IMG/VR virus record: IMGVR_UViG_3300037467_000723
Length of the DNA: 64,000 nt
Source of the DNA: a virus
Reading direction: 5' to 3' (one strand)
Part shown: positions 5,752 to 62,255 of the stretch, piece after piece
How the letters are laid out: each line of letters begins with the position of its first letter
Numbering within the stretch: the stretch's first letter is position 1
Notes under the pieces: model-generated
What the model saw: the letters and a program-made list of their open reading frames with translations, nothing else
Databases searched by the model: none
What the model was told of the DNA's origin: nothing
Program-made: the position numbers and the translations under genes

Positions 5752-6006
5752 GTGAATAGGCCAGAAGACATAATTAAGATGACTAAACTAGAAATAGAAT
5801 CTTCATCAGAAAGAGCAGCTAAACTATTTGATAAGTTTACAATAGAAACTAGGACTAAGATAACGATAAAGCAATCTTTTATACTAGGGTACCTACATGG
5901 ACGTGAGCAAGCGTTGGATGAAGTGGGAATATTCGATGATGAAGATGACGATAGTAAGATATATGAGATACTAAAAAGTGATAAATATAATAAAAATAAT
6001 AGATGA
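5752..6006 (+). CDS. hypothetical protein in an AT-rich moron-like segment (about 84 aa; alternative start 5779)
   Basis: GTG with ribosome-binding site aggggtgg; the track start 5686 would overlap its own promoter; low local GC; acidic C-terminal DDEDDD. Confidence 0.4.
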   Translation: MNRPEDIIKMTKLEIESSSERAAKLFDKFTIETRTKITIKQSFILGYLHGREQALDEVGIFDDEDDDSKIYEILKSDKYNKNNR

Positions 6007-7775: not shown

Positions 7776-8576
7776 ATGGAAACTAAAAAGGTTATCGGTT
7801 ATGTACGTGTATCAACGGAGGAACAAAAGAAGCATGGTGGCGGCCTGGAAGTACAGATCGCTGCCATTGAAAACTATTGTGCAGCCATGGGTTGGGAGTT
7901 ACTATACATCGTAAAGGAACCGGCTGAGTCCGGATCATCTATCGAGAAGCGTAAGAAGTTCATGAACATCTTAAACAGCCTTAAGGATCCTAATCGTGGC
8001 TTCGATGGTGTTATCTCTACTAAGCTAGATCGTTTTGCACGTAATCTGAAAGAGTTATTGATTATTCACGATGATATGTTCGAACCGAATAACTGTGCTC
8101 TAATCAGCATCAAAGACCAATTCGATACAAGCACGGCTCAAGGTCGTTTGTTCTTCCAGATCATCGGAGGCTTTGCCGAGTTCGAACGTTCTGTAATCAC
8201 TGAGCGTACTATGGACGGCATCACTCAAAAGGCCGAGCGTGGCCAGCATGCCTCTGGTCGAATCGCATTAGGTTACAAGTCAGTGATGGTTGACGGTAAG
8301 AAAACGTTAGAGGTAGATGATTCCGAAAAAGAAATCGTTGAGTTGATCTTCCGTCTCAAAGACCAGAACCACCTGTCATTCGGTAAGATCGCGGACTATC
8401 TGAACGACAACGGTTATAAGCCAAAGCGCTGGACTCCAGAAAAGCCGGTGCAGTTCCACAATAGTTCCGTCCAAGTCATCTATAAGAATCCAAAGTACAA
8501 AGGCATCTATACGTTTAATCGACGTGGCGAAGACCAAATCGTAGTTGAAAACGAAGCATTACGTATCTTATCCTAG
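7776..8576 (+). CDS. serine recombinase (resolvase/invertase-type N-terminus plus partial recombinase domain, 266 aa)
   Basis: GYVRVSTEEQ catalytic-serine motif; C-terminal VIYKNPKYKGIYTF recombinase-domain-like; no zinc-ribbon/coiled-coil extension. Confidence 0.8.
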   Translation: METKKVIGYVRVSTEEQKKHGGGLEVQIAAIENYCAAMGWELLYIVKEPAESGSSIEKRKKFMNILNSLKDPNRGFDGVISTKLDRFARNLKELLIIHDDMFEPNNCALISIKDQFDTSTAQGRLFFQIIGGFAEFERSVITERTMDGITQKAERGQHASGRIALGYKSVMVDGKKTLEVDDSEKEIVELIFRLKDQNHLSFGKIADYLNDNGYKPKRWTPEKPVQFHNSSVQVIYKNPKYKGIYTFNRRGEDQIVVENEALRILS

Positions 8577-13205: not shown

Positions 13206-13220
13206 TTGGAGGAGAAACTA

Positions 13221-14252
13221 ATGACAAACGTAAGCAAAAGAGCAGCTGTAACAGTGGGTAAGGAGAAGAAAGCAACATCATTATACGCAATCGACCTGGG
13301 GAACGGCTTCACTAAAAGGGTATTCGATGGCAGTGACGTCATCGTCGAGCCAAGCGTATTTTCCGAGGTTCCACGAATCAACAATTCAGATCGTAACTAT
13401 TTTACTCTTGATAATAAGCTTCAATATTTTGTCGGGCAAGATGTATTCGACCTAAATTTAGATCCGGAAGTTGCAGTCAACGACAGGGAACGGTACTTCA
13501 CGGATGAGTACAAACAGATGCTGCTGGGATTCATCGCAAAGGACTTTGGTACATTCGATATAATCGAGATTCCGGTTCTAGTGCTGGGCGTACCGAACAC
13601 AGATCACGAAGCAATCGGACCACAGCTTGAGGATTTCTATAGAGGAAAGTCCATCATCAAGATCGATGGGCATCACCAGTTAACTATCGATATCAAGCTT
13701 TGCATCGTACTTCCACAGCCACTCGGGACTTATGCTTATGCCGTTGCTAACGGAATCGTTGAAGAGTGGGGAGACAACGTACTAGTGTGTGATGCTGGTA
13801 CGGGATCCTTCGATGTGGCGTCAATCACAGGTGACCTAATCAAACGTGACGAAGGTTTAACTCTCGGAGCCCTGGATGCGTATATGGAAATTCGTAAGTA
13901 TCTGATTAGACAGCACGGCAATTTATCGGCAATCACTGTAGAGAACATGCCTAACATCTTAGCTAACGGTGTTCGAAAAGACGGTGCTGCCACGGTTATT
14001 AACGATGATCCGAGGGTTATCGAAATCCTAGACAAGAACTTCAATGAGATGTACAAATTCGTCAAGCAAGCTAAGTTCGATTTCGACGCCCATACTACTG
14101 TACTATGGACGGGAGGAACATCTCTATTGCACCAGGAACGCATCGAGGCTAAGAAGAAGAATACATTCGTTGTCCTGGCTGAAGCACAAACGGCCAACGT
14201 TCTAGGCTTCTATGCTATCGCCAAGGATATTGCTGAAGAGGAGAATTTATGA
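13221..14252 (+). CDS. actin-like ATPase of the ParM/Alp family (344 aa)
   Basis: phosphate-1 motif AIDLGNGFTKRV; DAGTGSFD (phosphate-2/adenosine-like); ribosome-binding site ggaggagaaactaATG. Confidence 0.65.
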   Translation: MTNVSKRAAVTVGKEKKATSLYAIDLGNGFTKRVFDGSDVIVEPSVFSEVPRINNSDRNYFTLDNKLQYFVGQDVFDLNLDPEVAVNDRERYFTDEYKQMLLGFIAKDFGTFDIIEIPVLVLGVPNTDHEAIGPQLEDFYRGKSIIKIDGHHQLTIDIKLCIVLPQPLGTYAYAVANGIVEEWGDNVLVCDAGTGSFDVASITGDLIKRDEGLTLGALDAYMEIRKYLIRQHGNLSAITVENMPNILANGVRKDGAATVINDDPRVIEILDKNFNEMYKFVKQAKFDFDAHTTVLWTGGTSLLHQERIEAKKKNTFVVLAEAQTANVLGFYAIAKDIAEEENL

Positions 14253-17745: not shown

Positions 17746-18351
17746 ATGAAGAAGCTAGTAGCGCCGATGTTAGCAGCTGGACTGTTAATGGCGGCATCTC
17801 CGGCATTTGCGTACAACGTGAGTCCTGGGGATACACTTAGCCAAATCGCTGTAAATGAACATATCACGTTAATCGACCTAATTAAATTAAATCCACAAAT
17901 TAAAGATCCGAACATGATCTTTCCAGGCGATGTGATAAAGACAACAGAAACACCGGATGTAGCGAATCCAACAACTACGGTGAATACTACCTATTCTGCC
18001 CGTGATCTTGACGTAATGTCTCGGATCATCGAGGCAGAGGCTGGGGGTGAGCCGTACAAAGGGAAAGTAGCAGTCGCAGAAGTGATTATGAATCGTGTTG
18101 CTTCACCGAAATTCCCGGACTCAGTCGAGGCAGTCGTTTATGCGCCTCACCAGTTCTCTCCGGTAGCAAACGGCATGATTAATAAGCCAGCTTCCGACGA
18201 TTCAATCCGTGCTGCCAAAGAAGTACTAAGCACATACCATGGTGATTCAAACGGAGCCATCTATTTCTTCAACCCAGGAGCAACATCCGACCACTGGATC
18301 CGTACTCGACAAGTTGTAGAAAGAATCGGAAATCATATTTTTTCAAAATAA
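17746..18351 (+). CDS. secreted LysM-domain cell-wall hydrolase (SleB/CwlJ Hydrolase_2-like, 201 aa)
   Basis: signal peptide MKKLVAPMLAAGLLMAASPAFA; LysM YNVSPGDTLSQIA...IFPGDVIK; C-terminal SRIIEAEAGGEPYKGKVAVAEVIMNRV. Confidence 0.6.
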   Translation: MKKLVAPMLAAGLLMAASPAFAYNVSPGDTLSQIAVNEHITLIDLIKLNPQIKDPNMIFPGDVIKTTETPDVANPTTTVNTTYSARDLDVMSRIIEAEAGGEPYKGKVAVAEVIMNRVASPKFPDSVEAVVYAPHQFSPVANGMINKPASDDSIRAAKEVLSTYHGDSNGAIYFFNPGATSDHWIRTRQVVERIGNHIFSK

Positions 18352-22578: not shown

Positions 22579-23417
22579 GCGTAGATGTCTTTTTTGATGC
22601 AAAAGATGCTGCTAAGTACGCTGACGTCCCACCAAATAACACGGATCAGACGTTAGCACAAGAGTTTACGGAACAGGTCGAGGATTTCTACAGCTTACCA
22701 CGGAAAAAACGTCATCGCGAAGAGGTTGTTTTCAGCCCTAGTGGCGTTAATTCCTGTGCAAGGGAGCTGTATTACATCAACACGAATGCCGAGACTGATG
22801 TGACTCCGTTGGTTCCTTGGCGTGAACGGATGTCCAGGAATGGTACCGGAGCTCACGATGTAACCCAAGCAGACTATCTAAATATGGAAGAGAAATTACG
22901 TGCTGCTGGTAAGCCGGTTAAGTTTCGTTTCTTAGAAGCTGAGATTAACGGTGAGAAGTCCTATAAGGTTGGTGACGTAGTAGTCAAACTTCGAGGCCGG
23001 TCTGACGGTAAGATGGCGCTATTAGACTCGGAAGGTAACGAGGTTGCTATCATTGGTTACGAGAAAAAGACCAAGGACAAGCGGAAGAATCTGAACAAGA
23101 TCGTGAAAGCTGGTCAACCTCAACCTGAGCATCGGGCCCAAGCAACATCTTATTTCCTTATCTTCGGCATTAAAAATTGGATGTTCGAATACGAAGCTCT
23201 CCAGAAGCCGGAGTGGAAGGAAATTATCCCAGAAAAACCAGACCAAGCACATTTCTACGTTGAGGTATCAGAGGAAGAGGCACGGGCGTTGCTGATCCGT
23301 CTAGCTAAGATTGTACGTGCAATCGAGAAGGGCGAACTACCGGCACCTGAGTTAGAGAAGTGTGGGTTCTGTGTATTCAAAGGTCAATGCGCCAAGGACG
23401 GCGGCTACAAGGAATGA
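22575..23417 (+). CDS. Cas4/RecB-like PD-(D/E)XK exonuclease with Fe-S Cys cluster (280 aa)
   Basis: one N-terminal Cys (NSCAREL) plus three C-terminal Cys (CGFCVFKGQC); D...E.K core LLDSEGNEVAIIGYEKK. Confidence 0.5.
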   Translation: MSVDVFFDAKDAAKYADVPPNNTDQTLAQEFTEQVEDFYSLPRKKRHREEVVFSPSGVNSCARELYYINTNAETDVTPLVPWRERMSRNGTGAHDVTQADYLNMEEKLRAAGKPVKFRFLEAEINGEKSYKVGDVVVKLRGRSDGKMALLDSEGNEVAIIGYEKKTKDKRKNLNKIVKAGQPQPEHRAQATSYFLIFGIKNWMFEYEALQKPEWKEIIPEKPDQAHFYVEVSEEEARALLIRLAKIVRAIEKGELPAPELEKCGFCVFKGQCAKDGGYKE

Positions 23418-23466
23418 CGGTAACTTCGGTTGCCGTCTTTTTCGTTCCTGAGAGGAGGTGAACAGA

Positions 23467-26943: not shown

Positions 26944-27978
26944 ATGGAATTACAAAAGCGTAAGCTGTACGATACTACAGCACCAAACCGAAGCACCGGA
27001 ATTATTAACGGAGAATCATCAAACGTACTAAATTGGGATGATGTCGCATTCCCGTGGGCATACGGCCTATACAAGAATATGCTGGCGAACTTCTGGATTC
27101 CTAACGAGATTAATATGAACGACGATAAGAAACAGTTCCCAGAAATGAAACCAAAAGAACAATTCGCGTTCAAACGCATCATCGGACTACTAGCTTTCCT
27201 AGATAGTATTCAGACGGATTACTGCGGTAAAATCGCTGACTATCTCACAGACTCATCACTATCAGCTTTAATGATGGTAACTGGGTTCCAAGAAGTAGTG
27301 CACAACCAATCGTACAGCTACATCTTGTCGTCGCTATGCACGAAGGCTGAACAAGAAGAGATATTCGAATACTGGAAGCACGATCCTATATTGAAGAAAC
27401 GGAATGAATTCGTTGCTGAGACTTACGAGGAGTTCGTAAATAACCCGACCCCATACACAATGTTCCGTTCCATCGTTAAAGATATCGTTCTAGAGGGATT
27501 GTACTTCTATGCCGGCTTTGCGTTCTTCTATAACCTGGCTCGGGACCAGCGCATGCTATCGACATCTAGAATGATTAACTACATCAATAAGGACGAGCAG
27601 CTGCACGTTAGATTATTCACGGAAATCTTAAAAGCGTTGTTCGCTCAGTATCCGGAGTTAGACGTTCCTGAGAATCATCAGTACATCATCGATACATTCC
27701 GTGAAGCTGCCGAGCTCGAGATCGAGTGGGGTTATTACGTTATCTCAGATACTTTCGACAACATCGATATGGGCGACCTAGAAGCATACATCAAGTTCAT
27801 CGCTAATAAGCGTGTGGGCCAATGTGGCATCCAGGAGAAACCATTCGAAGGTTATAAAACGAATCCACTGAAATGGATTAAGATCTTCGAGGATACGAAT
27901 GAATCGAAGCAAGACTTCTTTGAAGGTAAATCACGTCAATATTCTAAGCCGATTGATAACGGCTTCGACGAACTATGA
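26944..27978 (+). CDS. nrdF: ribonucleotide reductase small subunit (NrdF-like)
   Basis: 344 aa; di-iron ligand pattern (E...EVVH...E...EQLH); adjacent to nrdE. Confidence 0.8.
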   Translation: MELQKRKLYDTTAPNRSTGIINGESSNVLNWDDVAFPWAYGLYKNMLANFWIPNEINMNDDKKQFPEMKPKEQFAFKRIIGLLAFLDSIQTDYCGKIADYLTDSSLSALMMVTGFQEVVHNQSYSYILSSLCTKAEQEEIFEYWKHDPILKKRNEFVAETYEEFVNNPTPYTMFRSIVKDIVLEGLYFYAGFAFFYNLARDQRMLSTSRMINYINKDEQLHVRLFTEILKALFAQYPELDVPENHQYIIDTFREAAELEIEWGYYVISDTFDNIDMGDLEAYIKFIANKRVGQCGIQEKPFEGYKTNPLKWIKIFEDTNESKQDFFEGKSRQYSKPIDNGFDEL

Positions 27979-28016
27979 CGCTATTGATGAAAAGTATTCA
28001 CTAAGGAGGTTTAACA

Positions 28017-28211
28017 ATGGTCATTACAAAGGATTATTTAGATATGCGAATTTGTGATGTTGAAAAGCTGACAACTAACACACAAACATATAGGGAATTC
28101 ATTAGCGAAAGCGAAGAAGAATTTGGTTTAATTCCAAAAGATTTAGATGGTATGAGTGACAAACACCTTGTTGAGTACCTAGATTTCTTGGATTATTTGT
28201 GGACTAAGTAA
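28017..28211 (+). CDS. hypothetical protein (64 aa)
   Basis: ORF with ribosome-binding site. Confidence 0.45.
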   Translation: MVITKDYLDMRICDVEKLTTNTQTYREFISESEEEFGLIPKDLDGMSDKHLVEYLDFLDYLWTK

Positions 28212-28258
28212 TGTTGCACCCTACGAGAAAATAATGTAACAACGAAAGGAAGGATAAA

Positions 28259-28534
28259 ATGGAAATCGTAATTAAAGACTTTTACTCAGACAATTGCGGC
28301 GCATGTAAATCGTTGGTGCCGGTACTGGATCAAATCAAGGAGGAATACGTCGACACCGTCAAGATCGAAAAGATTAACGTCATGGAGGATCCACAGCAAG
28401 CTGCTGACTTCAACGTAATGGGTGTACCATCCGTGTTCATCTTAGTGGACGGAAAAGAGGTTCACTTCGGCAAAGGGTTCCATCCGTATGAGCTGTTGAA
28501 AGGTAAACTAGACGAGCTCCTGGAGGGGAACTAA
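28259..28534 (+). CDS. thioredoxin/glutaredoxin-fold redoxin (NrdH-like candidate, 91 aa)
   Basis: CGAC dithiol motif near the N-terminus; thioredoxin-like length and position next to the ribonucleotide reductase genes. Confidence 0.5.
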   Translation: MEIVIKDFYSDNCGACKSLVPVLDQIKEEYVDTVKIEKINVMEDPQQAADFNVMGVPSVFILVDGKEVHFGKGFHPYELLKGKLDELLEGN

Positions 28535-28815
28535 TGAAAGTATTATTAGATAACATGGGTTTTGACACAGCTGTAAGAGCGTTGAAACACGGGCATCCTG
28601 TTGCTAGAGCTGGCTGGAACGGCAAGGGGATGTACTTATATTACGTACCAGCTGCTAGTTACCCGGCCACAACCGACATAGCCCGTAGAGAAATCGGTGA
28701 GATGGTTCCTTACGGTGCTTATATCGCAATGAAAACGGCTCAAGGGAACGTGGTTCCGTGGCTTGCGTCTCAGACTGATATCTTAGCGGAAGATTACATC
28801 ATCTATGAACGATGA
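28534..28815 (+). CDS. DUF2829-like protein (candidate Tad2-type anti-Thoeris sponge, 93 aa)
   Basis: N-terminal GFDTAVRALKHGHPVARAGWNGKGMYL closely resembles the DUF2829 signature (...EALKAMKEGKKVRRKGWNGKG...). Confidence 0.45.
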   Translation: MKVLLDNMGFDTAVRALKHGHPVARAGWNGKGMYLYYVPAASYPATTDIARREIGEMVPYGAYIAMKTAQGNVVPWLASQTDILAEDYIIYER

Positions 28816-29119
28816 CGATATCAAATCGTTAATTCGTCGCCGTAGACGTCAGATCCTGGTTCACAGCTGCTTATATTACCGGCTAAACGAATCAATCGTT
28901 CCGGACCATGTCTATGACGGCTGGGCACTGCAATTAGCGGTTCTACATGAAAACTTCCCCGAAGAGGCGTCCGAGGTCGAGTATCACGAATACTTCCAGG
29001 GCTTTACGGGTGAGACCGTCTCTGGCTTTGATCTGCCGGTGCATCTACCGGAGATTATCGCTATCGCACACAGCCTATTAAAATATCATAAGCAACTAAA
29101 AGCGTCTACCAAACGGTAG
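28805..29119 (+). CDS. hypothetical protein (104 aa)
   Basis: ORF overlapping the upstream gene by 11 nt. Confidence 0.45.
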   Translation: MNDDDIKSLIRRRRRQILVHSCLYYRLNESIVPDHVYDGWALQLAVLHENFPEEASEVEYHEYFQGFTGETVSGFDLPVHLPEIIAIAHSLLKYHKQLKASTKR

Positions 29120-29142
29120 GCGCATTTTTTTTTGTTTATTCG

Positions 29143-29172
29143 CGTTACAAACGTCGATATGGGCCGGACTGT
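29143..29172 (+). promoter_or_regulatory. phage-specific promoter-like motif, copy 6
   Basis: T9 run then CGTTACAAA-cgtcgatat-GGGCCGGACTGT. Confidence 0.6.
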
Positions 29173-29205
29173 ATATATGAAGTTACTTAATAGGAGGAAA
29201 ACGAA

Positions 29206-29496
29206 ATGACGAAAAAACGTAGAACAGTTAAAGATTTGGCTGCAGACCCAGTGGTAGAGGCTCCACAACAACAGGAGCAATTATTCACTATCAAACTAGA
29301 AGTAATCGGAGCAGAGGAAGTCGTTGTTAACGGATTAAACAATCATTCAGTTCAACAAATCCGTCAATGGTTCTCTGGATTAGGACACGGTGTATTCGAA
29401 CTAGTGGTTGGAACGGGCTTATTGGTATTTGATCGTGCGAAGATTGCTTACTTAGTAATCGGCCCACAACAAGTCGAAGCACCTAAAGGAGAATAA
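29206..29496 (+). CDS. hypothetical protein (96 aa)
   Basis: ORF with ribosome-binding site taggaggaaaacgaaATG. Confidence 0.5.
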   Translation: MTKKRRTVKDLAADPVVEAPQQQEQLFTIKLEVIGAEEVVVNGLNNHSVQQIRQWFSGLGHGVFELVVGTGLLVFDRAKIAYLVIGPQQVEAPKGE

Positions 29497-29497
29497 C

Positions 29498-29854
29498 ATG
29501 GGCGAAGTTGCTTTTATTCACGCTGGTAAAGCTGACCGTGGTGGTCTTAAGGTAGCGATAAAGATTCAAAGCAAGGAACGTTTCATGGAGTGGGTAGACG
29601 AGTGGAACGAAAGAAACGCTGGCAGACATATTGGGTTTTACGGTTATCCGAAGATCAGATATGCATACATCGATGGCAGCTATAGTGAGTTGTTCAAGTT
29701 TATGTCTATCAACGAATTCGAAGCGATCTTTAACGAAGAGGATCGTAAGCGTCTCGGTAGATTGCTAGAGTATCGCAAAGGCGACTATCCGATTTTTCTA
29801 AAAGAAATTTACGTAAAACACGGAATATTACAGGGGGGGGAATTAGATGAATAA
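29498..29854 (+). CDS. hypothetical protein (118 aa)
   Basis: ORF coupled to the upstream gene. Confidence 0.5.
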   Translation: MGEVAFIHAGKADRGGLKVAIKIQSKERFMEWVDEWNERNAGRHIGFYGYPKIRYAYIDGSYSELFKFMSINEFEAIFNEEDRKRLGRLLEYRKGDYPIFLKEIYVKHGILQGGELDE

Positions 29855-30245
29855 ACAGTTTGAAATGGTTAAGCAGTTCCAATTAGCGATGAACCAACCG
29901 GTTGCCAATAAGCCAACGGTAATGGACGAGGTTCGTCAGCAACAACGTTATGAATATATGGCTGAAGAATTAATGGAGTTTCTCGGTAGCTCCGAATTAG
30001 TAGACCAGGCGGACGCAATGATCGACCTTATCTACTTAGCTATCGGAACCATGGTCGAGCTGGGCGTACTACCAGAGCCACTGTTCCAGATCGTACAGGA
30101 CGCCAACATGTCTAAGCTGTGGGAAGACGGCAAGCCACGATTGAATCCGGACACAAACAAGGTGATGAAGCCTCCCACGTTCGTGCGCCCGGAGCCATTA
30201 TTGGAAGCTGAGATAGAACGTCAAATTGCGGAGGCTAATCGATGA
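29847..30245 (+). CDS. putative MazG-like nucleotide pyrophosphohydrolase (132 aa)
   Basis: all-alpha EE..E motif (YEYMAEELMEFLGS...DAMIDLIYLAIG); weak inference. Confidence 0.4.
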   Translation: MNKQFEMVKQFQLAMNQPVANKPTVMDEVRQQQRYEYMAEELMEFLGSSELVDQADAMIDLIYLAIGTMVELGVLPEPLFQIVQDANMSKLWEDGKPRLNPDTNKVMKPPTFVRPEPLLEAEIERQIAEANR

Positions 30246-30409
30246 TCGTTTTATCTTGGATCGTATTAGTTATGTGTTTCCTATTGGGACTGTTGGAGTT
30301 CCTAAACATGTTAGCGAATCAGAACGGAGTAAGACGTTTCTTATCGTTTATGTTCGTAGCATTCTACATTATCACAGCTATAACAGCATTTGCGGATATT
30401 TTCGCATGA
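30242..30409 (+). CDS. small membrane protein (55 aa)
   Basis: two hydrophobic helices; ATGA-coupled. Confidence 0.3.
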   Translation: MIVLSWIVLVMCFLLGLLEFLNMLANQNGVRRFLSFMFVAFYIITAITAFADIFA

Positions 30410-30651
30410 TTTACACGATTGAAAGTATCGTAGATAGACGCACAGGTGAACCGACCGAACGTGATGCCCGACGAAAAGGGCATCGCATTGAGGTCATCTG
30501 GTTATCTCCGGGAGAGCCGATGCTGCTGAAATACGTCGATGAAGGATCGATATTAACGACTTCTGGCGTGTGGGAGCACCATCACCTACCAGATAGCTTA
30601 GTAGTTAAAACACGGAATTCAATTTATACATTCAAATCGGAGGGAAAGTAA
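30406..30651 (+). CDS. hypothetical protein (81 aa)
   Basis: in-frame internal ATG of track ORF 30226..30651; coupled. Confidence 0.4.
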   Translation: MIYTIESIVDRRTGEPTERDARRKGHRIEVIWLSPGEPMLLKYVDEGSILTTSGVWEHHHLPDSLVVKTRNSIYTFKSEGK

Positions 30652-30882
30652 ATGAACGAATTAACAGTGAGAGAAAAGTTAGCGTTATTCTCAGCTCTAC
30701 AGTTTTTCTTGGGAGAGAATTTCGGAAGAAACATCCTTGAACCAGAGGAGTACACCAAGTTACGTGATTTATTCGTTGATTATATGGGCGAGATTGATGG
30801 CGATGATGACGCTGAATTCGGAAACATCATGCTTGAGTTAGCTAATACGCTTAAAGCTGATCTATTGGAGGCTGCAGAATAA
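30652..30882 (+). CDS. hypothetical acidic protein (76 aa)
   Basis: ORF. Confidence 0.45.
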   Translation: MNELTVREKLALFSALQFFLGENFGRNILEPEEYTKLRDLFVDYMGEIDGDDDAEFGNIMLELANTLKADLLEAAE

Positions 30883-31157
30883 TGATTATCGTCGGCGCTA
30901 AAAACAAAGGTAAGAAACTAGTAAATGCAATTATCCGTGAATTAAACGCAAAGGGCACCGTTGAAGTAGCAGCAGTATCCGATAGAGGCGTTCACCAGAT
31001 CAATTTCGCTGGACAGAAGGTTGCTAACCAGATTAGAGAAAAGATCTCGGCTACACCGGCAGAAGGCGAAGTAACCATTGATGGCGTACATCGCGTGGCT
31101 CTAGTCGTAACTATCAAGAAAGCCGTAGAAGGTACGTATAGCGAGGTGACCGAATAA
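30882..31157 (+). CDS. hypothetical protein (91 aa)
   Basis: ORF. Confidence 0.45.
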   Translation: MIIVGAKNKGKKLVNAIIRELNAKGTVEVAAVSDRGVHQINFAGQKVANQIREKISATPAEGEVTIDGVHRVALVVTIKKAVEGTYSEVTE

Positions 31158-35690: not shown

Positions 35691-36560
35691 ATGAGAACAG
35701 ATAACCAAGGTAAAAAAGGCGTAGGAATTATCGGAGCAGTAGTAGTAGGAATCGGATTAATCGGTGGGGCAATCTTTTCATGGGGTGGTTCGTCTCACAT
35801 TCCGGTAGGTTCCGTAGGTATCGTAAAGCACATGAACGGTCAGGTAACTGAAATATCACAAGGCTGGCACTGGACAGGTTGGACTACCGGTGTTCAAGAA
35901 TATCCGACGTATAAGCAATCTCTAGTGCTTAGCGACAAATCTAGCGAAGGCGGCGAAGGAAATTCGTCTTGGAAAGTTGGCACGATGGATCAACAGGAGC
36001 TACCGGTTAACACGTCTCTAACATGGTCTATCTCAACTAAGGATGCTAAAGCGTTGTATCAAGCAGTTGGCGGTAAGGACATCGATTATATCCGTGACTC
36101 TATCGTTTCTCCAACAATGAAAAATATCGTTAACCAAATAACACATCAATACGGCTGGAACGAAATTAAAGGTTCTAAGCAAGCGGAAGTAGCGCTTAAG
36201 ATCAATGCAGCGTTAAAGGCCGAGCTATTGAAGTCAGGTATCGATGTAGGAACATTCGGATTCACACACGTTGGCTCTCCAGGAGGAATGGCTGCTGCTC
36301 AATCTGCACTAGCGACTGCTGAATTAGGAAAGCAAAAAGCTTTAGCTACGCAACAAACAGCTAAGATTACGAATGAGACAATGATTTCAAACGCAAAGGC
36401 GAAAGCAGAAGCTAAGAAAATCGAATCTCAAGCGACTAAGGCGCAAGCTGCAGCATTAAACGAATTGGTCATCCAAGAGAAGATGATCGAAAAGTGGAAC
36501 GGTCAGTTACCTCAAGTATCCGGTTCTAATACGATCATGCAACTTCCAGGACTGAAGTAA
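35691..36560 (+). CDS. membrane-anchored SPFH/band-7-like protein (289 aa)
   Basis: N-terminal transmembrane helix GVGIIGAVVVGIGLIGGAIF, then an SPFH-like beta-rich region and an Ala/Lys/Gln coiled-coil tail. Confidence 0.45.
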   Translation: MRTDNQGKKGVGIIGAVVVGIGLIGGAIFSWGGSSHIPVGSVGIVKHMNGQVTEISQGWHWTGWTTGVQEYPTYKQSLVLSDKSSEGGEGNSSWKVGTMDQQELPVNTSLTWSISTKDAKALYQAVGGKDIDYIRDSIVSPTMKNIVNQITHQYGWNEIKGSKQAEVALKINAALKAELLKSGIDVGTFGFTHVGSPGGMAAAQSALATAELGKQKALATQQTAKITNETMISNAKAKAEAKKIESQATKAQAAALNELVIQEKMIEKWNGQLPQVSGSNTIMQLPGLK

Positions 36561-61862: not shown

Positions 61863-61924
61863 TGCGCCCTTGGATGGTTCCCCCTAATTGTGAGGAACGG
61901 GCAGCATACTAAAAACCGTCTGCA

Positions 61925-62000
61925 CGATTCGAACGTGCGACCTTTCTCTCGAGATACTCGATTGCTCTACCAGACTGAGCTAAGACGGCAAGCTGTACTT
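61925..62000 (-). tRNA. tRNA-like gene B
   Basis: reverse complement GCCGTCT-TA-GCTCAGTCTGGTAGAGC ... GCACG-TTCGAAT-CGTGC-AGACGGT; canonical acceptor, D and T arms; anticodon arm could not be folded canonically by hand. Confidence 0.45.
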
Positions 62001-62160: not shown

Positions 62161-62179
62161 CGGAGAATGTGGAAATAAC

Positions 62180-62255
62180 GGAGAGAAGGGATTTGAACCC
62201 TCGAACTAGACACCTGCACGATGTCCGCTTTAACCAAACCAGCTAATCTCCCATA
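62180..62255 (-). tRNA. tRNA-like gene D
   Basis: reverse complement ...GACAU-CGUGCAG-GUGUC anticodon arm; GAGGG-TTCAAAT-CCCTT T-arm; acceptor stem only 5/7 paired. Confidence 0.4.

What the first reader, a model, noticed from the sequence alone, without database searches (positions are those of the whole stretch)
28534..28815. DUF2829-like protein: candidate Tad2-type anti-Thoeris sponge
The N-terminus GFDTAVRALKHGHPVARAGWNGKGMYL matches the hallmark of DUF2829 proteins. Members of this family from Bacillus phages have been reported to sequester the Thoeris signalling nucleotide. It sits among early genes, where anti-defence genes usually lie.
Basis: partly seen in the sequence, partly recalled or inferred. 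Interest (0 to 1): 0.55.

Follow-up and report, generated by a model that had tools for sequence, protein, structure and literature searches.

The report
Tad2-family anti-Thoeris sponge gene

Summary
The ORF at 28534..28815 (+) is real, and the quoted peptide is residues 9-35 of its product. It matches Pfam PF11195 "Tad2-like" end to end (E 1.7e-23, 83 bits against a cutoff of 25). It also matches five solved Tad2 proteins by sequence. Its AlphaFold model (pLDDT 92.7) hits only Tad2 structures (best: ModTad2, TM 0.83/0.88). dN/dS against four orthologues is 0.13-0.17. All direct gcADPR contacts of SPO1 Tad2 are identical here. At 14 pocket positions it matches three verified type I Thoeris inhibitors at 12-13/14, but ModTad2 (inactive on type I, binds His-ADPR) at only 7/14. 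The best reading is a tetrameric sponge for 3'cADPR/2'cADPR that counters type I-like Thoeris. Its overall fold is ModTad2-like, so a second pocket and a second ligand are possible. Tad2 specificity is known to be diverse and hard to predict, so the ligand is inferred, not shown. The gene is the second-to-last in a ribonucleotide-reductase operon of a new Bacillales-type siphophage. It overlaps by 11 nt a stand-alone NAD+-binding ligase Ia domain gene, but this pairing is confined to the one phage lineage. Verdict: new member of a known kind, low interest.

The parts
28534..28815 (+). Tad2-family (PF11195, formerly DUF2829) coding sequence: 93 aa, 10.4 kDa, pI 6.7
   Evidence: ORF. Pfam E 1.7e-23. 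PDB sequence hits to ModTad2, HgmTad2, SptTad2 and SPO1 Tad2. AF2 model pLDDT 92.7. Foldseek top 24 hits are all Tad2. dN/dS 0.13-0.17. MW and pI.
28522..28528 (+). Shine-Dalgarno sequence GGAGGGG, 5 nt upstream of the ATG. The start codon shares one base with the thioredoxin TAA stop (TAATG).
   Evidence: Read directly from the sequence.
28612..28629 (+). Codons for G27-W28-N29-G30-K31-G32, the beta1-beta2 loop. In SPO1 Tad2 (W25, N26) and HgmTad2 (W21, N22, G23) this loop covers the ligand and binds its diphosphate.
   Evidence: Alignment. Residue roles. W28, N29 and G30 are invariant in 97 homologues.
28759..28779 (+). Codons for W76-L-A-S-Q-T-D82. This is the second half of the canonical gcADPR pocket, equivalent to SPO1 W73, S76, T78, D79 and HgmTad2 W87, L88, S90, T92, D93.
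   Evidence: The motif is identical to HgmTad2 and SptTad2 and to the verified type I inhibitors from M. bastinii and R. callidus.
28639..28719 (+). Codons for residues 36-62, the insertion between the core strands: a beta-hairpin, a short helix at 48-53 and a strand at 57-60. It is ModTad2-like in length and sequence (YYVP..Y...TD......GE.V.Y). T47 replaces the pocket-occluding F44 of SPO1 Tad2.
   Evidence: Secondary structure of the model. Gap-free alignment to ModTad2. Best structural match is ModTad2, rmsd 1.7 A.
28259..28534 (+). Upstream cistron: thioredoxin (91 aa), translationally coupled to the Tad2 gene. Context only.
   Evidence: Pfam PF00085 E 4e-16. Absent at this position in the relatives L001-L004.
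28805..29119 (+). Downstream cistron overlapping the Tad2 gene by 11 nt: a stand-alone NAD+-binding Ia domain of NAD-dependent DNA ligase (104 aa). It is a neighbour with a possible but unproven functional link.
   Evidence: Pfam PF22745 E 1.4e-26. The same overlap occurs in L001-L004. Weak alignment to LigA N-termini keeps the YY...D..YD signature. Solo Nlig-Ia proteins in phages are described in PMC9503650.
29102..29133 (+). Intrinsic terminator-like hairpin (9-bp stem, 6 GC pairs) followed by a T9 run. It ends the operon just after the Nlig-Ia gene.
   Evidence: A second terminator-like site at 23416-23437 precedes the RusA gene, so the two bracket a RusA-PDDEXK-NrdA-NrdB-orf64-Trx-Tad2-NligIa unit.

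Best explanation
The gene encodes a Tad2-family 'sponge'. By analogy with the solved family members, four copies of the 93-residue protein assemble into a tetramer. Two symmetric pockets form between protomers of different V-shaped dimers. The G27-WNG-KG32 loops and the W76-LASQTD82 segment of two chains close around a TIR-made ADP-ribose signal. The most likely signal is 1''-3' gcADPR (3'cADPR), and probably also 1''-2' gcADPR. The protein holds the signal without degrading it, so the Thoeris effector (the ThsA NADase in type I) is never switched on and the phage completes its cycle. The gene is co-transcribed and translationally coupled with the phage's ribonucleotide-reductase/thioredoxin genes, so the sponge should be made while the phage replicates its DNA. 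Shown here: family membership, fold, conservation of the ligand-contact residues, purifying selection and operon structure. Inferred: tetramer formation, ligand identity, sequestration and anti-Thoeris effect.
For: There is a full-length PF11195 match at 83.4 bits against a 25-bit cutoff. phmmer hits solved Tad2 proteins: ModTad2 7.6e-24, HgmTad2 6.7e-17, SptTad2 3.8e-13, SPO1 gp34.65 1.5e-12. The AF2 model has pLDDT 92.7 and pTM 0.77. Its 24 best PDB matches are all Tad2 (ModTad2 TM 0.83/0.88, rmsd 1.7 A), and the next hit has E > 1. The SPO1 contacts W25, N26, T65, W73, T78, D79 and S76 correspond to W28, N29, T68, W76, T81, D82 and S79 here, all identical. SPO1 I63 corresponds to M66, as in HgmTad2 M76. 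These positions are invariant or nearly so in 97 homologues. At 14 pocket positions the protein matches verified type I Thoeris inhibitors from Nitrosospira (13/14), M. bastinii (12/14) and R. callidus (12/14). It matches ModTad2, which is inactive on type I, at 7/14. dN/dS is 0.13-0.17, with residues 27-88 almost invariant among orthologues. The likely host order is Bacillales: the closest cellular RNRs are all Bacillales at 55-62%, the closest phage RNRs are from Paenibacillus and Bacillus phages, and there is a SleB-type hydrolase. [quoted passage not shown]
Against: No binding or infection data exist for this protein. Specificity in the family is diverse and not reliably predictable from sequence or phylogeny, and 19 of 84 tested sponges across the three families blocked none of seven systems. 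The closest solved relative in both sequence and structure is ModTad2, which binds His-ADPR, 2'cADPR and cUMP/cCMP but not 3'cADPR. The pocket-match score is not a strict predictor, because the active E. coli UM149 homologue also scores only 7/14. The water-coordinating SPO1 residues D67 and H71 are Q70 and V74 here. The oligomeric state was not modelled. The host and its defence repertoire are unknown.
Confidence: 0.68

Rival explanations
1. It is a Tad2-family sponge with a different or additional ligand. The canonical pocket could take His-ADPR (type II Thoeris) or N7-cADPR (type IV). Alternatively, a second pocket inside each V-shaped dimer could take cUMP/cCMP (Pycsar) or another small cyclic nucleotide, as in ModTad2. 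Either way it would be a two-pronged or non-type-I inhibitor.
For: ModTad2 is the nearest solved protein in sequence (46-47% identity, gap-free) and structure (rmsd 1.7 A, against 4.5-6 A for SPO1 Tad2). The insertion between the core strands has the ModTad2 length and the YYVP..Y...TD...GE.V.Y pattern. T47 replaces SPO1 F44, whose stacking occludes the second pocket. ModTad2 uses that pocket for cUMP. Tad2_71 inhibits types I, II and IV Thoeris.
Against: The residues that distinguish the ModTad2 canonical pocket (T73, V76, S77, A70) are L77, Q80, T81 and V74 here, which is the type I-like state. The HgmTad2 cyclic-dinucleotide contacts are not conserved: R31 is V38, N85 is a deletion, L36 is Y43, and the insertion is about 24 residues rather than 41. 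The residues lining the ModTad2 cUMP site are not given in any accessible text, so that pocket could not be scored.
Confidence: 0.22
2. It acts as an AcrIIA7-like anti-CRISPR. The tetramer would bind tracrRNA in a basic groove and prevent Cas9 loading.
For: AcrIIA7 proteins belong to the same family (E 6.7e-17 and 2.7e-15). A version lacking the N-terminal head domain still binds RNA. K18 and K31 correspond to the essential K58 and K71.
Against: The third essential lysine, K66, is A26 here. The protein is near neutral (pI 6.7). K18 and K31 are conserved family-wide, so they do not argue specifically for RNA binding. The long HgmTad2/AcrIIA7-type insertion is absent. An earlier study could not reproduce the anti-Cas9 activity, so the function is disputed.
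Confidence: 0.03
3. It is not a counter-defence protein. Instead it would be a small nucleotide-binding accessory of the phage's nucleotide-metabolism operon, for example sensing or buffering an NAD+/ADPR-derived metabolite together with the adjacent solo Nlig-Ia domain.
For: The gene sits inside an RNR-thioredoxin operon, overlaps a stand-alone NAD+-binding domain gene, and that arrangement is kept in four related contigs.
Against: Every characterised family member is an immune-signal sponge or an anti-CRISPR. The neighbours of Tad2 genes differ completely in three other lineages (thymidine kinase block, RtcB, GIY-YIG). Solo Nlig-Ia genes occur without Tad2 in three other phages.
Confidence: 0.05

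Closest known systems
ModTad2 / MoTad2 (Myroides odoratus prophage; PDB 8V3E apo, 9EIB with His-ADPR)
   Same: It is the best sequence match (E 7.6e-24, 46-47% identity, no gaps over 87 residues) and the best structural match (TM 0.83/0.88, rmsd 1.7 A). The insertion has the same length and architecture. Both have Thr at the position of SPO1 F44.
   Different: The canonical-pocket segment is WLASQTD here against WTPSVSD in ModTad2, with V74 against A70. Only 7 of 14 pocket positions agree. ModTad2 does not inhibit type I Thoeris and does not bind 3'cADPR.
SPO1 Tad2 (gp34.65; PDB 8SME/8SMF/8SMG), the founding member
   Same: The sizes are similar (89 against 93 aa) and the alignment is gap-free. 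All direct 1''-3' gcADPR contacts (W25, N26, T65, W73, T78, D79) are identical. Both come from phages of Bacillales hosts.
   Different: Overall identity is only 35-36% and the structural superposition is poorer (rmsd 4.5-6 A). The SPO1 insertion differs in sequence, and its F44 closes the second pocket (T47 here). The water-coordinating D67 and H71 are Q70 and V74 here.
HgmTad2 / AcrIIA7 and SptTad2 (PDB 8KBI-8KBM, 8WJD)
   Same: The GWNGKGM loop and the WLASQTD segment are identical. M66 and V74 equal HgmTad2 M76 and V84, which are its gcADPR contacts.
   Different: The window protein lacks their 35-41-residue insertion and the cyclic-dinucleotide contacts R31 and N85. It also lacks one of the three lysines needed for tracrRNA binding.
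Verified type I Thoeris inhibitors from prophages of Nitrosospira sp. Nsp1, Ruminococcus callidus and Maridesulfovibrio bastinii (Yirmiya et al., Supplementary Table 12)
   Same: Overall identity is 43-49%, and 12-13 of 14 canonical-pocket positions are identical. The Nitrosospira protein shares MKTAQG.VVPWL.SQTD.
   Different: Their insertions differ in length and sequence, and they come from unrelated hosts. Activity was tested for them but not for this protein.

Membership tests
Tad2 / PF11195 (Thoeris anti-defense 2-like, formerly DUF2829) | Profile HMM match above the curated gathering score, covering the whole domain | tested here: met
   83.4 bits against a cutoff of 25, E 1.7e-23, profile positions 1-72 of 73. 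PHROGs 1048 and 872 match at about 1e-27.
Tad2 / PF11195 | Small single-domain protein (about 80-100 aa) with an N-terminal helix, an antiparallel beta-sheet and an insertion between the core strands, superposable on solved Tad2 structures | tested here: met
   The protein is 93 aa. The AF2 model has pLDDT 92.7, with helix 10-18 followed by strands and short helices. The Foldseek top 24 PDB hits are all Tad2, TM up to 0.88, with no other fold below E = 1.
Tad2 / PF11195 | Canonical ligand-pocket residues: the WNG loop plus the W..S.TD segment (SPO1 W25, N26, W73, S76, T78, D79) | tested here: met
   W28, N29, G30, W76, S79, T81 and D82 are all identical, and all are invariant in 97 homologues.
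Tad2 / PF11195 | Homotetramer (a dimer of V-shaped dimers) that creates pockets between protomers | not testable with these tools
   Only a monomer could be modelled. Tetramers are reported for SPO1, Hgm and Mod Tad2.
Tad2 / PF11195 | Binds and sequesters a TIR-derived ADPR signal (gcADPR) without degrading it | not testable with these tools
   This needs HPLC, ITC or SPR with purified protein. It is inferred here only from conserved contacts.
Tad2 / PF11195 | Abolishes Thoeris defence in vivo | not testable with these tools
   This needs co-expression or knock-in infection assays, as.
Tad2 / PF11195 | Encoded by a phage or prophage | tested here: met
   The window carries portal, terminase, tape-measure, PolA, DnaB, primase and RNR genes. 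Orthologues lie on syntenic 58-62 kb metagenomic contigs that look like phage genomes.
ModTad2 clade (type II Thoeris / His-ADPR sponges) | ModTad2-type canonical pocket (W-T-P-S-V-S-D, A70) associated with loss of type I inhibition | tested here: not met
   The window has W-L-A-S-Q-T-D and V74, so 7/14 pocket positions agree. The overall fold and insertion are nevertheless ModTad2-like.
Long-insertion Tad2 (HgmTad2/SptTad2 cyclic-dinucleotide binders) | A 35-41-residue insertion with CDN contacts (HgmTad2 R31, L36, S47, F70, N85) | tested here: not met
   The insertion is about 24 residues. R31 is V38, L36 is Y43, N85 is deleted and F70 is Y60.
AcrIIA7 (tracrRNA-binding anti-CRISPR) | Lysines K58, K66 and K71 (pdAcrIIA7 numbering), each required for RNA binding | tested here: not met
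   They correspond to K18, A26 and K31, so the K66 equivalent is alanine.

The most novel reading that the evidence does not exclude
The protein could be a hybrid Tad2 that pairs a type I-like gcADPR pocket with an open, ModTad2-like second pocket for a different signal, such as a cyclic pyrimidine mononucleotide or an undiscovered molecule. In this phage lineage it could also work as a translationally coupled pair with the stand-alone NAD+-binding Nlig-Ia protein. That would make a two-gene counter-measure to NAD+-based immunity, in which one protein soaks up the alarm signal and the other senses or shields NAD+/NMN.
Probability: 0.1. Interest if true: 0.5.

Novelty: new member of a known kind. 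Interest (0 to 1): 0.22.

Why it matters
The result mainly matters for annotation. It flags a counter-defence gene in an otherwise uncharacterised phage lineage, whose terminase is at most 38% identical to that of any isolated phage. It also predicts that the Bacillales-type hosts of this lineage use TIR/Thoeris signalling. The protein combines a ModTad2-like scaffold with an SPO1/HgmTad2-like pocket. That makes it a modestly useful test case for which residues set 3'cADPR versus His-ADPR specificity, a question the field cannot yet answer from sequence. Nothing here challenges current understanding.

Tried and rejected
(1) Near-identity DNA search of 27000-31000 against 50,697 phage records gave no match, so the source phage is not a deposited isolate.
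(2) PADLOC models gave no hit for the Tad2 gene or its neighbours, as expected for an anti-defence gene.
(3) I tested whether Tad2 and solo Nlig-Ia form a general two-gene cassette. The adjacency and 11-nt overlap hold in the window and in L001-L004 only. Three other Tad2 lineages have different neighbours. Three other Nlig-Ia phages (an IMG/VR contig, Bacillus phage vB_BpsS-36 and Clostridium phage FA67) have no Tad2 nearby. The 179 isolated phages with solo Nlig-Ia are mostly Arthrobacter, Clostridium, Escherichia and Erwinia phages, a different host spectrum from the Tad2 hits. I rejected it as a general rule and kept it as a lineage-specific observation.
(4) Host identification through prophage relatives of the portal found nothing in 185,579 genomes. 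RNR similarity gives only an order-level pointer to Bacillales.
(5) The published His-ADPR paper (Nature 2025) and the supplementary tables of Hadary et al. and Li et al. are not held. The residues lining the ModTad2 His-ADPR and cUMP pockets could therefore not be mapped one by one.
(6) The consensus promoter scan found fewer sites than shuffled controls (13 against 19.7), so no promoter is claimed.
(7) phmmer of the Nlig-Ia protein against PDB gave only weak hits (E 0.3-1.2) to LigA N-termini. Its assignment rests on the Pfam profile.

Full report
OBSERVATION. The window carries an ATG-to-TGA ORF at 28534..28815 on the + strand that encodes 93 residues. A GGAGGGG Shine-Dalgarno sequence lies at 28522-28528, 5 nt upstream of the ATG. 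The ATG shares its A with the TAA stop of the preceding thioredoxin gene, giving TAATG. The last 11 nt of the ORF overlap the start of the next gene at 28805.

IS IT A REAL GENE? Yes. Four orthologues (81-84% amino-acid identity) lie on 30-62 kb metagenomic contigs with the same gene order. Nei-Gojobori comparison with them gives dN/dS of 0.13-0.17, with dS of 0.64-0.92. Nearly all amino-acid changes fall in the first 26 residues and the last few. Residues 27-88 are almost invariant. A protein search returns 3,119 homologues at E <= 1e-5, and all 120 listed carry PF11195. The closest is 88% identical, so this exact sequence is new.

FAMILY AND FOLD. Pfam gives one hit, PF11195 'Tad2-like' (the former DUF2829). 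It scores E 1.7e-23 and 83.4 bits against a 25-bit cutoff, covering profile positions 1-72 of 73. PHROGs 1048 and 872 match at about 1e-27 but are unannotated. A sequence search of the PDB finds only Tad2 proteins: ModTad2 (9EIB/8V3E, about 1e-23), HgmTad2/AcrIIA7 (8KBI, 6.7e-17; 9KZR, 2.7e-15), SptTad2 (8WJD, 3.8e-13) and SPO1 gp34.65 (8SME/8WJE, about 1.5e-12). I built an AlphaFold2 model on a 97-sequence alignment. It is confident (mean pLDDT 92.7, pTM 0.77) and shows an N-terminal helix (10-18), a beta-sheet core, and an insertion with a hairpin and a short helix. Foldseek against the PDB returns 24 hits below E = 0.001, and every one is a Tad2 structure. The best is ModTad2 bound to His-ADPR (TM 0.83/0.88, rmsd 1.7 A over 87 columns). 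SPO1 Tad2 superposes less well (rmsd 4.5-6 A), and the next fold has E > 1. Family membership is therefore established as far as computation allows.

WHAT THE FAMILY DOES (literature). SPO1 Tad2 is an 89-aa homotetramer. It sequesters 1''-3' gcADPR in two pockets formed between protomers of different V-shaped dimers. The contacts are W25, W73, N26, D79, T78, I63 and T65, with waters held by D67, H71 and S76. It thereby blocks type I Thoeris. HgmTad2 binds gcADPR in the same way (W21, N22, G23, M76, A78, V84, W87, L88, S90, T92, D93). In addition it binds cyclic dinucleotides in a second pocket built from a 41-residue insertion (R31, L36, S47, F70, N85). ModTad2 does not block type I Thoeris. 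It binds His-ADPR (type II) and 2'cADPR at the A-B interface, which by the papers' geometry is the canonical pocket. It also binds cUMP/cCMP at the A-C (V-dimer) interface. Tad2_71 blocks types I, II and IV. AcrIIA7 homologues are reported to bind tracrRNA through K58, K66 and K71. The authors of the large screen warn that specificity is hard to infer from the poorly supported trees, and that 19 of 84 tested sponges hit none of seven systems.

WHICH LIGAND HERE? The window protein aligns without gaps to SPO1 Tad2 and to ModTad2. All direct SPO1 gcADPR contacts are identical: W28, N29, T68, W76, T81 and D82, plus S79. SPO1 I63 is M66 here, as in HgmTad2. The WLASQTD segment is identical to HgmTad2 and SptTad2. 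These positions are invariant or nearly so across the 97 closest homologues. Supplementary Table 12 of Yirmiya et al. lists the homologues tested against type I Thoeris, with their sequences. Over 14 canonical-pocket positions the window protein matches the active proteins from Nitrosospira (13/14), M. bastinii (12/14), R. callidus (12/14) and SPO1 (9/14). It matches the inactive ModTad2 at only 7/14. The ModTad2-specific states T73, V76, S77 and A70 are L77, Q80, T81 and V74 here. This favours 3'cADPR/2'cADPR binding. There is a caveat: the active E. coli UM149 homologue also scores 7/14, so the score is indicative rather than diagnostic. The scaffold, by contrast, is ModTad2-like. The two share insertion length and the YYVP..Y...TD...GE.V.Y pattern. 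Thr47 stands where SPO1 has F44, the residue whose stacking closes the second pocket. A second ligand site is therefore possible but could not be scored, because the lining residues are given only in figures I could not access. The HgmTad2 dinucleotide pocket is not conserved: V38 for R31, a deletion at N85, and a short insertion. One of the three lysines essential for AcrIIA7 RNA binding is alanine here (A26), and the protein is near neutral with pI 6.7.

CONTEXT. The window is a phage genome. Its + strand arm holds an HTH regulator, a serine recombinase, a DnaB-type helicase, an actin-like protein, primase, a LysM/SleB-type hydrolase, PolA, PD-(D/E)XK nucleases, RusA, class I RNR large and small subunits, thioredoxin, Tad2, solo Nlig-Ia, MazG, ThyX and a dNMP kinase. 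Its - strand arm holds tail, portal and terminase genes. Terminator-like hairpins at 23416-23437 and at 29102-29123 (followed by T9) bracket a RusA-to-Nlig-Ia unit, in which Tad2 is the second-to-last cistron. The phage is new. There is no near DNA match in the phage collection, the terminase is at most 38% identical to isolates, and the portal has no relative in 185,579 bacterial genomes. The RNR large subunit is 60% identical to those of Paenibacillus larvae phages and 55-62% identical to Bacillales chromosomal RNRs only. Together with the SleB-type hydrolase, this points to a Bacillales host by inference.

THE NEIGHBOUR. The overlapping downstream gene (28805..29119) is a stand-alone Ia domain of NAD-dependent DNA ligase (PF22745, E 1.4e-26). 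Its weak alignment to Enterococcus LigA keeps the YY...D..YD signature. From my own knowledge of LigA (Sriskanda and Shuman), those positions bind the NMN moiety. Such solo domains were described in 81 phages and proposed to be NAD+ sensors, and that paper does not mention DUF2829 at all. No ligase catalytic module turned up among the roughly 40 window ORFs I scanned. Tad2 handles an NAD+-derived signal, so I tested whether the pairing is general. It is not. The pairing holds in the window and in L001-L004 only. It is absent from three other Tad2 lineages and from three other Nlig-Ia phages. I record it as a lineage-specific curiosity.

VERDICT. This is a new sequence of a well-characterised, very widespread anti-defence family. 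The most likely mechanism is tetrameric sequestration of gcADPR signals, which would blunt type I-like Thoeris (confidence about 0.68). There is a real possibility (about 0.2) of a different or additional ligand, given the ModTad2-like scaffold. Novelty is 'new member of a known kind' and interest is low (0.22).

Noticed in passing
window 28805-29119 (+); L001-L004 6272-6583: A stand-alone NAD+-binding Ia domain of NAD-dependent DNA ligase (PF22745, E 1.4e-26; YY...D..YD signature kept) overlaps the Tad2 stop by 11 nt and is followed directly by a strong terminator. No ligase catalytic module was found among the roughly 40 ORFs scanned. The Tad2 and Nlig-Ia overlap is conserved in four related contigs but absent from three other Tad2 lineages and three other Nlig-Ia phages.
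   Followed up: yes
window 28017-28534 (+) versus L001-L004 about 5989-6001: In the window a 64-aa ORF (PHROG 4072) and a thioredoxin gene lie between the RNR small subunit and Tad2. In the four related contigs Tad2 follows the RNR small subunit after only 11 nt. This looks like a small insertion or deletion polymorphism within the operon.
   Followed up: partly
L003 4411-4983; L002 1-397: An HNH endonuclease gene (PF13392) sits between the RNR large and small subunit genes in one related contig, and another lies upstream in a second contig. Neither is present in the window. This probably reflects homing-endonuclease mobility.
   Followed up: no
window 28534-28611 (residues 1-26 of the Tad2 protein): Among orthologues almost all amino-acid replacements fall in the N-terminal strand and helix (for example MKVLLDNMGFDTAVRALKHGHPVARA against MDILMSNVDFGMAITAMKIGHAVARV), while residues 27-88 are nearly invariant. 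In solved Tad2 tetramers this helix forms the interface between the dimers, so fast change there is unexpected.
   Followed up: partly
window 17746-18351 (+): A LysM plus SleB-type 'Cell Wall Hydrolase' (PF07486) protein is encoded in the replication arm, far from the structural and lysis genes. This family is typical of spore-forming Bacillales and supports the host guess.
   Followed up: no
window 7776-8576 (+): A serine recombinase (Resolvase plus Recombinase domains, 266 aa) lies in the early arm. However, the portal has no relatives in 185,579 bacterial genomes, so there is no evidence of integrated copies of this phage type.
   Followed up: partly
window 61914-61989 and 62179-62253 (-): Two tRNA genes, tRNA-Ile (anticodon TAT) and tRNA-Ala (TGC), lie next to the terminase end of the structural arm.
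   Followed up: no
window 13206-14252 (+): There is an actin-like (ALP_N/ParM-type) protein gene, which could indicate plasmid-like partitioning or intracellular positioning of phage DNA.
   Followed up: no
window 35691-36560 (+); L009 4663-5484: The window has an SPFH/Band_7 protein gene. An unrelated 149-kb contig also carries a Band_7 gene about 1.4 kb downstream of its Tad2 gene, after RtcB. This may be coincidence.
   Followed up: no
window 29206-29854 and 30226-31157 (+): Several small ORFs just downstream of the terminator and around the MazG gene (96, 118, 141, 76 and 91 aa) have no significant Pfam or PADLOC match (one 76-aa ORF has only a marginal PADLOC JetA hit, E 0.0055). The first two also have no PHROG match. 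They are candidates for further unknown accessory or anti-defence genes.
   Followed up: partly
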